A stretch of 33,994 nt of DNA from a virus (Duplodnaviria > Heunggongvirae > Uroviricota > Caudoviricetes). Every line of letters begins with the position of its first letter. Position 1 is the first letter of the stretch. Below are positions 21,001-24,000 of the stretch, piece by piece. Location of the stretch: IMG/VR virus record IMGVR_UViG_2802429242_000009, positions 1 to 33,994 of that record. The stretch is one strand, 5' to 3'. Position numbers: made by a program.

Positions 21001-24000
21001 TCGCATCTGCTGATAGCCAGCAGAAATCTGATATCCGCGAGGCTCTGAAACTGCTCGGACAGTTCCAGCAACAGCAAGGAGACAATGCCCGTGCTGATGC
21101 AGAGCTTGTCCTGAAAAGTCAGGCACAGGGCCATGCGCAGCGCATGGACATCAGCAGCATCCTGCAAAAATCAACTCAGCAACAACCACAGCAGTAATTA
21201 ACCCATAACGTGCAATGGCTGTCTTTATGAGGCCTGGCACCCTATTGCCTTCCGATGGGCTGAACATCGAGTAAACAGGGGTAACAAATGGACCAGATGG
21301 CAGAAAACACACCAGAAGTTGAAATCGAAACCGACGCGTCAGAGCAGATTCCTGATGATGTCGAACTGGCTGAAGAAGTCGAAACAGAAGATGGCAGTGA
21401 GTCATCCGGCAATGATGTAGAGGAAGCTACTGAAACTGATGACGACGAATCAGAACAGGAATTCTACTTTGGTGACGAAAAGCTGGATTCGCCAACCAGC
21501 GAAGATGGCGCAGAGCATGGACTGGTAAAACACCTGCGCAAGACGATTAAAGAGAAAGACCGTGAGCTGAAAGAGCTGATGCGTCAGTCTCAGAAACCCG
21601 TCGAGCAGCAGCCGGTAATCACTCAACCACCGCGAATGCCAAAACTGGATGATGAGGACATCGGTTTCGATGAAGAAATCTACCAGCAACGCATGGCTAA
21701 GTGGGCAGAGGATAACGGCAAGTACCAGCAACAGGAGATGGCTCGCAAGCAGAAGGAGCGGGAGCTTCAGGCTGCCTATCAAGAGCGATTATCCAAATAT
21801 CAGCAACGTGTTAAGGCTCTCAAAGTTCCTGGCTATCAGGAAGCTGAGCAGGCCGTACTCGAGGAAATCCCCATCGAGACACAAAACGCGATCTTGTTTG
21901 AGTCAGAGAAGCCGGAAATCGTTGTTCTGGCACTCGGTCGCAACGCTGAACTGCGCAAGCAACTGGCAGAAGCTACCAACCCCGTAGCAATTGGTCGTCT
22001 GCTGGAACGTATCGAATCGAAGGCCAGAATCATGCCAAAAGCAAAAACCACGGCAGCCACAACCCCGACAGTTAAGGGGAGCAACGGCGCAGTAATCAAC
22101 AACCTCGACAAACTGAAAGCCAGGGCGCTGGAAACTGGTGACTGGACGCCGTATTTCGCCGCTAAAAAGGCAAAAAAATAACCTATCGGAGCATTAAGCA
22201 TGGCTAACCAATTAGCAAAAGACCTTGAAATCATGTTCGAAAACTACGTTGAAGGCTTTGAGGCCGCCTGCGTAGTTTCCCGTAACGCTAAAAAATTCCG
22301 TCCCGGTGATACAGCAATGCAGCGAGCAGGTGATGTTCTGTATCGTCCGCAGCATTACCACATGAACATTGAGGAAGGCCTAGACCTCAGCGGCAAAACG
22401 CCAACAGCACTGGTTCAGCGCCTTGTTCCTTCTGTGTTCAAGGAGCCGAAAAACATTCTGTACACTCTGGATGCGCGTGAAATGCGTGACCCGGAACATA
22501 AAACTGAAGCTGGTCGCGCCGCAGGTATGCGCCTTGCTGCACAGATTGACTCTGACCTGATTTCCATGGTTACGCAGCGTGCTACTAACGTGATCACGAT
22601 GGCTGACTCAACCACAGGTTCACAGGGCCGTGATTTGTGGAACTGTGCGGCAGGTATTGATGCCACCATGACGGCGATTGGTGTACCTCAGGGTATCAAC
22701 CGTCGCTCTTTCTGGAACCCCTTCAACTACAAAGACCTTGCTGGCGAGCTTGGTCACCGTGCCTATGCTCAGGGCGCAACCCTGACAGCATACGAAAAAG
22801 CGCAAATCCCTCCGGTTGCGTCCTTCGATAGCTACAAGACCGATATTTCTGGTCGTGTTCCGAAGGGTACAGCAACTTCCATTACGCTGGCAGCAGCACC
22901 TGCGCACAAGGTTGAAGCGAAAGATGCTAACGATATGCCAGTGGATAACCGACAGGGGACCATTACGGTATCTGCTGAAGGTTTGCAGGTTGGCGATGCG
23001 TTTACCATCGCAGGGGTGAATTCTGTACACCAGATCACCAAAGATACCACCGGGCAGCCGCAGGTATTCCGCGTTCTGGCAGTAAGCGGAACGACAGTAA
23101 CTATCTCCCCGAAAATTCTGCCGCCTGACAACGCGGATGTCGCCAGCCGACCATATGCAAACGTTGATGCTAATGCGGCAAGTAGCGCAGCAATCACCAT
23201 TCTCAACAAAAATGCCGCACCGGCTAACCTGTTCTGGGCTGATGGTTCTGTTGAACTGATGTACGGCAAGCTGGCGTTCCCAACTGGTCAGGGTCCACAG
23301 GTAATGACAGCAACCACCGAGCAGGGCGCTACGCTGATCATGTCTTACGCCTTCGACCACATCAAAGGTGTAACCACTGCGCGTTTCACCACCCTGTACG
23401 GTTGCTCTGTACTTGTTCCTGAATATACGGGCATCGTTATTGCCGGGCAGTAATTTTGGTGGGGCTTCGGCCCCATTTTTATTGGGAGAAGACAATGGCA
23501 CGAACAATGCTCTATAAGCCTGGCAACATGATCACCTGTGGTCAGTTTGCTGTCGATTACATCATTGTTGATGACGAAGAAGTTAAATCTCACCTGAAAA
23601 AAGGCTGGGTAAAAACTCCTGAAGAAACCGCAACGAAGCATAAAGTGGCTAAGGCGGAAGAAGATGGCGAAAACGAAGGGTGATCTCGTTCTTAAGGCTT
23701 TACGAAAAGCCGGGCTGTATTCCAATGCCACGTTGACAGATGCTGACCCTCAGGCAATTGAAGATGCCATTAATGACCTCGAAGACATGATGGCAGCATG
23801 GCAGGCTAAAGGTATCGAGCTTGGATATCAGTTTGCTGATACAGAAAACGGCATCATGCCGTTACCTGACGATGATTCAGGTATCCCTGCATGGGCAAAT
23901 GATGGCGTCGCTTTGAAACTCGCTGTGCAAGTGTGCATGGATAACGTCATTCAGCCGTCAGACGCTCTCCTTACCGCTGCTGACAGTGCATATCAGACAA

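What the first reader, a model, noticed from the sequence alone, without database searches (positions are those of the whole stretch)
23461..23483. Strong GC-clamp tetraloop terminator directly after the coat gene
GGGGC-TTCG-GCCCC followed by a T-run sits 8 nt after the coat stop, within a late operon that must continue into the tail genes. This would give partial termination, boosting coat and scaffold relative to downstream minor proteins. The next ORF as drawn by the ORF track would start inside the hairpin, which is why I moved that start to ATG 23495.
Basis: seen in the sequence. Interest (0 to 1): 0.35.

Follow-up and report, generated by a model that had tools for sequence, protein, structure and literature searches.

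The report
Known coat-gene terminator of P22-like phages
The hairpin plus T-run just after the coat gene is real and strongly conserved, but it is the already-annotated "coat terminator" of P22-like phages, and its exact role inside an antiterminated late operon is still untested.

Summary
GGUGGGGC-UUCG-GCCCCAUU (23458-23477; core 23461-23474, about -13 kcal/mol) is followed by TTTTTATT. It lies in the 41-nt gap between the coat gene (stop 23451-23453) and ATG 23495. Hairpin+T-run sites this strong are expected 0.29 times per window and occur 5 times.

The window is a P22-like (Lederbergvirus) genome of the CUS-3/Kapi1/Sf101 subgroup. The same element follows the coat stop in 57 of 59 distinct P22-like phage and prophage sequences, with compensatory stem changes and a conserved T-run. 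GenBank already annotates it in Sf6 ("terminator ... t coat") and P22 ("RNA stem-loop"). The phage L genome paper discusses it and calls its role unknown. Lambda (after E) and HK97 (after gp5) have the same layout.

It overlooks that this late operon is driven by a Q21-type antiterminator (13215-13703), whose RNA-exit nozzle blocks terminator hairpins. The likely net effect is still more scaffold/coat mRNA than downstream mRNA, possibly through leaky termination, 3'-end protection or both.

The move of the next ORF's start to ATG 23495 is well supported. Novelty: already known. Interest: low.

The parts
22200..23453 (+). Major coat protein gene (417 aa), the gene whose 3' end the element marks
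   Evidence: PF11651 P22_CoatProtein, E = 9.6e-76. phrog_283 major head protein. 98% nucleotide identity to phage Kapi1.
23458..23477 (+). Terminator hairpin GGUGGGGC-UUCG-GCCCCAUU: 8 bp in all, a core of 5 G-C pairs at 23461-23474, and a cUUCGg tetraloop
   Evidence: Conserved with compensatory changes in relatives.
23476..23483 (+). T-run TTTTTATT (U-tract of the terminator); its first two T can pair as the outer G-U pairs of the stem
   Evidence: In 42 distinct relatives the 8 nt after the GC core average 5.9 T.
23484..23489 (+). Shine-Dalgarno GGGAGA for the next ORF, 5-6 nt before ATG 23495
   Evidence: The GGAG motif is conserved at this place in most relatives.
23495..23683 (+). Small ORF (62 aa, phrog_1175, function unknown). 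It overlaps the gp4 start by 20 nt. The true start is ATG 23495, not TTG 23456.
23664..24125 (+). gp4-type head-tail adaptor, the first essential gene that depends on read-through
   Evidence: PF11650 P22_Tail-4, E = 7e-41.
13215..13703 (+). Q21-type late antiterminator, which determines how RNA polymerase meets the hairpin
   Evidence: PF06530, E = 9e-25. Full-length match to PDB 6JNX/6P18 Q protein, E = 4e-108.
13710..13790 (+). Late promoter region. TTGACA is at 13710-13715. The phage-21-type Q-binding element ATTGAGCA/AATGAGCA is at 13718-13733. A tR'-like hairpin at 13749-13783 is followed by T7 at 13784-13790. The assignment is inferred from sequence.
   Evidence: The QBE sequence of phage 21 is quoted in PMC8022706.

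Best explanation
This is the CUS-3/Kapi1-subgroup copy of the "coat terminator" (t_coat) found in almost all P22-like phages. It is a canonical Rho-independent terminator: a 5-8 bp GC stem, a UUCG tetraloop and a U-tract. It sits 4-7 nt after the coat stop, inside the single late operon.

Its conserved position is directly behind the most abundantly needed structural gene and directly in front of genes needed at roughly 30-fold lower copy number. Most likely it makes the upstream late mRNA that ends with the scaffold and coat genes (either mechanism also covers the terminase and portal genes) more abundant than the downstream head-completion, ejection and tail mRNA.

Late transcription here is carried out by RNA polymerase loaded with a Q21-type antiterminator. 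I therefore expect most polymerases to pass. The difference would come from two things: a minority of termination events (leak, or polymerases without Q), and the hairpin acting as a 3'-exonuclease barrier on terminated or endonucleolytically cut transcripts.

Shown: the structure, its non-random nature, its positional and structural conservation, operon continuity, and the Q21 identity.

Inferred: that it terminates unmodified polymerase efficiently, that Q-loaded polymerase largely ignores it, and that the net effect is differential mRNA abundance.
For: Structure and statistics.

Position: in 61 dereplicated P22-like loci (430 kb of + strand), 55 of 62 strong hairpin+T-run hits lie within 40 nt after the coat stop.

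Conservation:
- 57 of 59 distinct coat-downstream sequences have the element. These span coat types that are only 18-29% identical in protein sequence.
- It is also present in the lytic relatives sortkaff, IME_EC2 and C130_2, and in APSE-1 and phiSG1.

Covariation: the inner 5 pairs are paired in all 42 distinct sequences. Three pairs show compensatory changes in 30 cells. 0 of 500 shuffles reach the observed score (0.294 against 0.133), and slid registers collapse.

The T-run is tied to the hairpin rather than to the SD. T is 74% of the 8 nt after the core, and this holds in phages where the next gene is 45-90 nt away.

Prior annotation and discussion: Sf6 "terminator ... t coat", P22-pbi "RNA stem-loop", phage L paper.

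Same design in other lambdoid phages: after lambda E (ATGGCCC-TTCG-GGGCCAT in a 41-nt gap) and after HK97 gp5 and its major tail gene, both annotated as putative terminators.

A documented analogue: T7 Tphi directly after capsid gene 10, with an RNA-seq drop downstream (PMC6938266).

Operon continuity.
Against: No expression data exist for this element in any P22-like phage in the searchable literature.

The Q21 nozzle is described as an effectively absolute barrier to terminator hairpins and as processive over tens of kb. Termination of genuine late transcripts may therefore be close to zero.

From my own memory, not checked here: classic work on lambda (Sampson, Hendrix and colleagues, 1988) attributed differences among late proteins mainly to translation initiation, with roughly even mRNA along the operon.

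In HK97, putative terminators also precede the major tail gene. That is awkward for a purely cumulative-attenuation model.

Terminase and portal, both low-copy proteins, lie upstream of the element and would benefit equally from it.
Confidence: 0.55

Rival explanations
1. Pure leaky attenuator. A substantial fixed fraction of late, Q-modified polymerases terminate at the hairpin, and this alone sets the coat/scaffold versus downstream ratio.
For: All sequence features of a strong intrinsic terminator are present. The T-run is conserved. The position is exactly where protein demand drops. The T7 Tphi precedent applies. It is one of the two options named in the phage L paper.
Against: The Q21-type antiterminator sterically prevents hairpin formation at the RNA exit channel. 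The downstream late + strand ORFs out to about 30.8 kb (gp4, gp10 and those annotated in relatives as needle and ejection proteins) depend on read-through with no downstream promoter close by. Multiple such hairpins in HK97 late operons would starve distal genes.
Confidence: 0.25
2. Post-transcriptional element only. Q-loaded polymerase reads through completely. The hairpin then forms on the free mRNA and blocks 3'-to-5' exonucleases after endonucleolytic cleavage in the adjacent U-rich single strand. This stabilises the coat/scaffold segment, as intercistronic stem-loops do in malE-malF.
For: The Q21 mechanism. The extra-stable cUUCGg loop occurs in 28 of 42 distinct sequences. Hairpins flank abundant genes in HK97. 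The lambda hairpin after E has a weaker T-run (TGTTTCTCT) but the same stem and loop design.
Against: A pure exonuclease barrier needs no U-tract, yet the T-run is as conserved as the stem and stays attached to the hairpin. RNase E cleavage there is my inference and was not tested.
Confidence: 0.3
3. Insulator or fail-safe. The terminator exists to stop polymerases that are not Q-modified (tR' leak-through, spurious initiation, prophage state) from expressing downstream genes.
For: This is the second option named in the phage L paper. The element is carried as a prophage in 408 of 5426 complete E. coli genomes, so silent-state selection is plausible.
Against: Non-Q polymerases from the late promoter must already pass the tR'-like terminator (13749-13790) and a second strong terminator at 15389-15408. 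No sigma-70-like + strand promoter is predicted between 15000 and 23458. The hypothesis does not explain why the site is always exactly behind the capsid gene. Strictly lytic relatives keep it.
Confidence: 0.12
4. Recombination joint. The roughly 30-nt conserved cassette of hairpin, T-run and SD persists chiefly because it is a short shared sequence at which procapsid modules and head-completion modules are exchanged between phages.
For: Identity breakpoints fall exactly on it. Window versus L057 is about 60% identical upstream and 100% identical from GGGGCTTCGGCCCC onward. L114 versus L130 is 99% identical through hairpin and SD and below 60% after the next ATG. L024 versus L025 breaks inside the hairpin. 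Xenorhabdus prophages have the same coat type with an unrelated downstream ORF.
Against: Junctions at gene boundaries are expected anyway, because selection removes in-gene joints. 14-30 nt is very short for homologous recombination. The idea does not explain the covarying stems, the T-run, or the same design behind unrelated capsid genes in lambda and HK97. No control for enrichment was done.
Confidence: 0.08
5. Coding sequence. The hairpin region encodes the N-terminus of a 75-aa protein that starts at TTG 23456, as in the ORF track and the Kapi1 annotation.
For: The frame is open from TTG 23456. Kapi1_051 is annotated so.
Against: The TTG is TAG or TGG in near-identical relatives, and the frame is closed in L057, with the 62-aa protein unchanged. 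The PHROG profile starts at the ATG. The SD precedes the ATG. No SD precedes the TTG, which lies 3 nt after the coat stop.
Confidence: 0.02

Closest known systems
t coat of Shigella phage Sf6 (GenBank AF547987, regulatory feature 6147-6173) and the "RNA stem-loop" after gene 5 of P22 (AF527608, 6102-6119)
   Same: Same place: 4-6 nt after the stop of a P22_CoatProtein-family gene, before a small ORF, gp4 and gp10. Same design: AGGGGC-tetraloop-GCCCCT plus T-run plus SD. Same late-operon context.
   Different: The coat genes are only 18-29% identical in protein sequence to the window's. The loop is UUAC in Sf6 and UGCG in P22, against UUCG here. The outer stem here is U-A plus two G-U pairs rather than A-U. 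P22 uses a lambda-type Q, and this phage a 21-type Q.
[quoted passage not shown]
   Same: Same element in a P22-like phage that also has a Q21-type antiterminator. The authors note it lies inside the single late operon and offer partial termination or a block to non-antiterminated transcription as possible roles.
   Different: The sequence of the L copy was not examined here. The paper gives no experimental test.
Hairpins after the major capsid genes of lambda (E-FI gap) and HK97 (gp5, annotated putative terminator)
   Same: Stop codon, GC hairpin with tetraloop (lambda also UUCG), T-rich tail, SD and next gene, all within about 40 nt and inside a Q-dependent late operon.
   Different: The capsid gene families are unrelated. 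Lambda's T-run is weak (TGTTTCTCT). HK97 has further such hairpins after the portal gene and around the major tail gene.
T7 terminator Tphi after capsid gene 10
   Different: Tphi acts on T7 RNA polymerase. T7 has no Q-type antitermination and has promoters downstream. There is no sequence relationship.
Intercistronic stabilising stem-loops (REP in malE-malF type; from my own knowledge)
   Same: A stable hairpin between cistrons of one operon could protect the upstream segment from 3' exonucleases and give differential expression.
   Different: It is not a dispersed repeat, because the 14-mer occurs once in the window. It carries a conserved U-tract, which REP elements lack.

Membership tests
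Rho-independent (intrinsic) terminator | GC-rich stem of about 5-12 bp with a short loop | tested here: met
   8-bp stem with 5 G-C pairs, UUCG loop, -13.3 kcal/mol.
Rho-independent (intrinsic) terminator | U-tract immediately 3' of the stem on the transcribed strand | tested here: met
   (A)TTTTTATT at 23475-23483. The minus strand lacks a T-run. The T-run is conserved in relatives.
Rho-independent (intrinsic) terminator | Lies downstream of a stop codon, in the orientation of the surrounding genes | tested here: met
   4-7 nt after the coat TAA. All flanking genes are on the + strand.
Rho-independent (intrinsic) terminator | Releases transcripts from E. coli RNA polymerase at the U-tract | not testable with these tools
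   Needs in vitro transcription or 3'-end mapping. No such data were found in the literature searches.
Coat terminator (t coat) of P22-like phages | Within about 40 nt after the stop of a P22_CoatProtein-family gene | tested here: met
   PF11651 coat. Offset is 4 nt here and 2-31 nt in 57 of 59 relatives.
Coat terminator (t coat) of P22-like phages | Followed by a small ORF and then gp4 and gp10 homologues, with no intervening promoter | tested here: met
   phrog_1175 ORF, PF11650, PF11134. No + strand promoter-like site.
Coat terminator (t coat) of P22-like phages | Hairpin structure maintained by compensatory change across the group | tested here: met
   G-C to A-U at pair 3 in 10 sequences, C-G to U-A at pair 1, and A-U/G-C/U-A at pair 6. 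0 of 500 shuffles reach the score.
Coat terminator (t coat) of P22-like phages | Host genome is a P22-like (Lederbergvirus-type) phage or prophage | tested here: met
   98% nucleotide identity to Kapi1, 95% to CUS-3. Gene order terminase-portal-scaffold-coat-gp4-gp10.
Dispersed REP-like stabiliser repeats | Multiple copies of the same palindromic unit in the genome | tested here: not met
   One match in the window at up to 2 mismatches.
Any Rfam RNA family | Match at gathering threshold | tested here: not met
   Only two tRNAs reach threshold in the window.

The most novel reading that the evidence does not exclude
In this Q21-driven operon the "terminator" does not terminate late transcripts at all. 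Two other roles would then explain its conservation:
- It acts after transcription, as a 3'-end protecting or processing signal for the scaffold-coat message.
- The roughly 30-nt hairpin/T-run/SD cassette is the shared joint at which procapsid modules are swapped among P22-like phages. Identity breakpoints fall exactly on it in several locus pairs.
Probability: 0.2. Interest if true: 0.45.

Novelty: already known. Interest (0 to 1): 0.18.

Why it matters
It matters little as a discovery. The element is annotated in Sf6 and P22 and discussed for phage L, and the same layout exists in lambda and HK97.

Its value is practical. It fixes the start of the downstream small ORF, which is mis-annotated from the TTG in Kapi1. 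It also marks the boundary between the procapsid and head-completion modules.

The open point is why lambdoid phages keep termination-competent hairpins inside operons read by terminator-resistant, Q-loaded polymerase. That question is real and modest in scope. It is directly testable with 3'-end mapping, for example in complete E. coli genomes that carry this stretch (HS, NC_009800) or with phage Kapi1 on its host MP1.

Tried and rejected
- Folding of the 61-nt window gave non-significant z-scores (-1.49 on the + strand, -1.28 on the - strand). A short GC hairpin is not distinguished from shuffles that way, so I used a joint hairpin+T-run scan with shuffles instead.
- The Rfam scan found nothing at the site.
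- An alignment of 10 coat proteins was too divergent to seed search for related loci. I used the conserved gp10 instead.
- Literature: four full-text searches for expression or termination data on P22-like late operons found none (searches had no relevant hits; two searches found only the genome papers).
- The Casjens 2004 Sf6 paper, Casjens & Thuman-Commike 2011, Vander Byl & Kropinski 2000, Pedulla 2003 and Liu 2013 (lambda ribosome profiling) are not held.
- PMC5630979 and PMC5737525 contained nothing on this element.
- Rejected as explanations: a bidirectional terminator (no T-run on the minus strand), a REP-like repeat (single copy), coding for an N-terminal extension, and an operon end with a new promoter (no room and no promoter-like site).
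- The mosaic-junction idea was only partly followed up. There was no enrichment control against other gene boundaries.
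Full report
WHAT IS THERE. The coat ORF (22200-23453, 417 aa, PF11651 P22_CoatProtein, E = 9.6e-76) ends with TAA at 23451-23453. After TTTTGGT comes GGGGC (23461-23465), TTCG (23466-23469) and GCCCC (23470-23474). Then follow A, TTTTT, A, TT (to 23483), GGGAGA (23484-23489) and ATG at 23495.

The stem extends outward by U-A and two G-U pairs to 8 bp (23458-23477). Energies are -9.6 kcal/mol for the 5-bp core, -11.2 for 6 bp and -13.3 for 23458-23477. On the minus strand the hairpin is followed by ACCAAAATTAC, so the element points one way only.

IS IT MORE THAN CHANCE. Folding a 61-nt window is not informative (z = -1.49). A scan for perfect or G-U stems of at least 5 bp, loops of 3-8 nt and at least 5 T in the next 8 nt finds 14 sites at <= -9 kcal/mol. 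Five of them are at <= -13 kcal/mol. In 100 dinucleotide shuffles the means are 2.4 and 0.29. By my arithmetic from that rate, a site this strong falling on the + strand in this particular 41-nt gap has a chance of roughly 2e-4. The 14-mer occurs once in the window, and no Rfam family matches there.

WHAT GENOME THIS IS. The region is 98% identical to Escherichia phage Kapi1 and 95% identical to CUS-3 (Lederbergvirus). The gene order matches P22-like phages:
- small terminase (PF03592), large terminase and portal;
- scaffold and coat;
- the small ORF, gp4 adaptor (PF11650), gp10 (PF11134), then needle and ejection proteins.

A 201-nt stretch around the hairpin is present at >=95% identity in 408 of 5426 complete E. 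coli genomes.

THE ELEMENT IS CONSERVED AND ALREADY ANNOTATED. GenBank AF547987 (Sf6) carries a regulatory feature directly after its coat gene: [quoted passage not shown]. AF527608 (P22-pbi) carries "RNA stem-loop" at the same place.

Reading the sequences gives the following hairpins:

| Phage | Hairpin and tail |
|---|---|
| P22 | AGGGGC-UGCG-GCCCCU UUCUUUAU |
| Sf6 | AGGGGC-UUAC-GCCCCU UUUAUGUUUU |
| IME10 (its coat matches the HK620-type group) | GAGGGAGC-UUCG-GCUCCCUU UUUUAU |
| APSE-1 | GGGCGC-UUUA-GUGCCC UUUUUAU |
| phiSG1 | GGGGC-GUAA-GCCCC UUUC |
| NM-3 | AGGGGC-UUCG-GCCCCU |
| sortkaff (lytic) | GGGGGCC-UUUGU-GGCCCC U8 |
| IME_EC2 (lytic) | GGGGAGCC-AUU-GGCUCCUC U7 |
| C130_2 (lytic) | AAGGGGC-UUCG-GCCCCUU U4 |

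Only Ralstonia phage Firinga lacks it.

I then collected 120 further loci through the conserved gp10 and located each coat stop by tblastn.
- Of 59 distinct coat-downstream sequences, 57 have a hairpin plus T-run starting 2-31 nt after the stop. One of the two exceptions keeps the hairpin with a degraded T-run.
- In 61 dereplicated loci (430 kb of + strand), 55 of 62 strong hairpin+T-run hits lie within 40 nt after the coat stop and only 7 lie elsewhere.
- In a loop-anchored, gap-free alignment of 42 distinct sequences, the five inner pairs are paired in every sequence.
- Three pairs show changes on both sides in 30 cells (G-C to A-U at pair 3, C-G to U-A at pair 1, A-U/G-C/U-A at pair 6).
- No shuffle of 500 reaches the observed covariation score (0.294 against 0.133), and every slid register is much worse.
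- The loop is UUCG in 28 of 42 sequences. The 8 nt after the GC core average 5.9 T.
- The T-run stays attached to the hairpin even where the next gene is 45-90 nt away. It therefore belongs to the hairpin and not to the ribosome-binding site.

THE SAME DESIGN EXISTS OUTSIDE THE P22 GROUP.
- In lambda, the 41-nt gap between E (major capsid) and FI reads TAA-TC-ATGGCCC-TTCG-GGGCCAT-TGTTTCTCTGTGGAGGAGTCC-ATG.
- In HK97, "putative terminator" features are annotated right after the major head gene and the major tail gene, among others.
- T7 has its single T7-RNA-polymerase terminator, Tphi, immediately after capsid gene 10, with a measured drop in RNA downstream (PMC6938266).

HOW IT IS LIKELY TO WORK. 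The late operon must continue past the site. The gap has no room for a promoter, no + strand sigma-70-like site is predicted between 15000 and 24460, and the downstream genes are packed or overlapping.

ORF 13215-13703 is a Q antiterminator (PF06530) that matches the phage 21 Q protein over its full length (PDB 6JNX and 6P18, E = 4e-108). The phage-21 Q-binding element ATTGAGCA/AATGAGCA lies at 13718-13733, next to TTGACA at 13710. It is followed by a tR'-like hairpin plus T7 (13749-13790) and by two tRNA genes (QBE sequence quoted in PMC8022706).

Structures of Q21-loaded polymerase show a nozzle on the RNA exit channel. [quoted passage not shown] Substantial termination of genuine late transcripts is therefore not a given.

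The phage L genome paper describes the same terminator in a P22-like phage that also has a Q21-type protein. [quoted passage not shown] It offers two options: partial termination, or stopping transcription that starts without antitermination.

WEIGHING THE OPTIONS.
- The conserved U-tract argues that the element is selected as something RNA polymerase responds to (or as an RNase E site), and not as a bare hairpin.
- The fixed position behind the most abundant structural gene, in phages with unrelated capsid genes and different Q families and in lytic relatives, argues for a role in expression balance rather than generic insulation.
- The insulator idea is further weakened in this window. Non-Q polymerases would already have to pass the tR'-like terminator and a second strong terminator at 15389-15408. 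No promoter-like site lies upstream in the late region.
- The HK97 pattern, with hairpins on both sides of the major tail gene, and my recollection of lambda work showing roughly even late mRNA fit a hairpin that protects 3' ends better than one that removes a large share of polymerases. The lambda work was not checked here.

I therefore commit to a mixed model: a genuine intrinsic terminator that Q-loaded polymerase largely reads through. Its net effect is a moderate excess of scaffold/coat message, produced by residual termination plus 3'-end protection (confidence 0.55). Pure attenuation (0.25) and pure stabilisation (0.30) overlap with this model as sub-cases. Insulation (0.12) and a recombination-joint role (0.08) are lesser alternatives.

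THE NEXT ORF.
- The phrog_1175 profile begins at that methionine. The 13 extra residues from TTG 23456 are outside the profile.
- GGGAG precedes the ATG at the right distance.
- In near-identical relatives the TTG is TAG (L062 group, L077) or TGG (L086).
- In L057 the frame upstream of the ATG runs straight from the coat's TAA without any start codon, yet the 62-aa protein is unchanged.
- CUS-3 is annotated from the ATG. Kapi1 is annotated from the TTG, which is probably an error.

VERDICT. The element is the well-conserved, already annotated coat terminator of P22-like phages. Novelty: already known. Interest: low.

Noticed in passing
window 23454-23495 compared with L057, L114/L130, L024/L025, L026/L042/L029: Mosaic identity breakpoints fall exactly on the hairpin cassette. 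Window versus L057 is about 60% identical in the coat 3' end and 100% identical from GGGGCTTCGGCCCC onward. L114 versus L130 is 99% identical through hairpin and SD and below 60% after the next ATG. Xenorhabdus prophages keep a CUS-3-type coat (about 90% aa identity) but have an unrelated ~80-aa ORF downstream.
   Followed up: partly
window 13710-13950: The late-operon leader has TTGACA, then a phage-21-type Q-binding element ATTGAGCAAATGAGCA (13718-13733), then a tR'-like hairpin plus T7 (13749-13790). tRNA-Asn(GTT) at 13795-13869 and tRNA-Thr(TGT) at 13875-13950 follow, upstream of the + strand ORFs at 14069-15215, which correspond by position to the endolysin and Rz spanin annotated in Kapi1. 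The literature describes the same tRNA pair for Sf6.
   Followed up: partly
window 15389-15408 (+): A second strong intra-late-operon terminator, AGCCTCGC-ATTT-GCGGGGCT plus TTTTTT (-13.6 kcal/mol). It sits after the lysis cassette and before a KilA-N-domain ORF (15560-16081).
   Followed up: no
window 15741-15772 (-), 7680-7707 (-), 10257-10280 (+), 6395-6414 (-), 4785-4806 (-): Other strong hairpin+T-run sites (-12 to -19 kcal/mol). One lies on the minus strand inside the + strand KilA-N ORF. Overall there are 14 such sites against 2.4 expected.
   Followed up: no
L001 (Kapi1 MT813197) 8557-8784: Kapi1_051 is annotated from the TTG that reads through the terminator hairpin (75 aa). Comparative evidence favours the 62-aa ATG start used in CUS-3.
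   Followed up: yes
L010 (IME_EC2) 1892-1920; L009 (sortkaff) about 1880-1915: In lytic P22-like relatives the coat terminator is followed or overlapped by a sigma-70-like promoter (TTGGCT-17-TATACT in IME_EC2). A TATACT also sits at the same place in sortkaff. There the site may be a true terminator-promoter boundary.
   Followed up: partly
window 15000-33994: Sigma-70-like promoter matches are depleted in the late region: 12 found against 23.7 +/- 5.1 in shuffles.
   Followed up: no
L133 (lambda NC_001416) 1459-1502, i.e. lambda 7158-7201: Lambda has a UUCG-tetraloop GC hairpin (ATGGCCC-TTCG-GGGCCAT) 2 nt after the stop of major capsid gene E. It lies in a 41-nt gap before FI and is not annotated in the RefSeq record.
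   Followed up: partly
window 21198-21287: The 90-nt portal-scaffold gap is the only other sizeable gap in the packaging/head block. It has no terminator-like hairpin.
   Followed up: no
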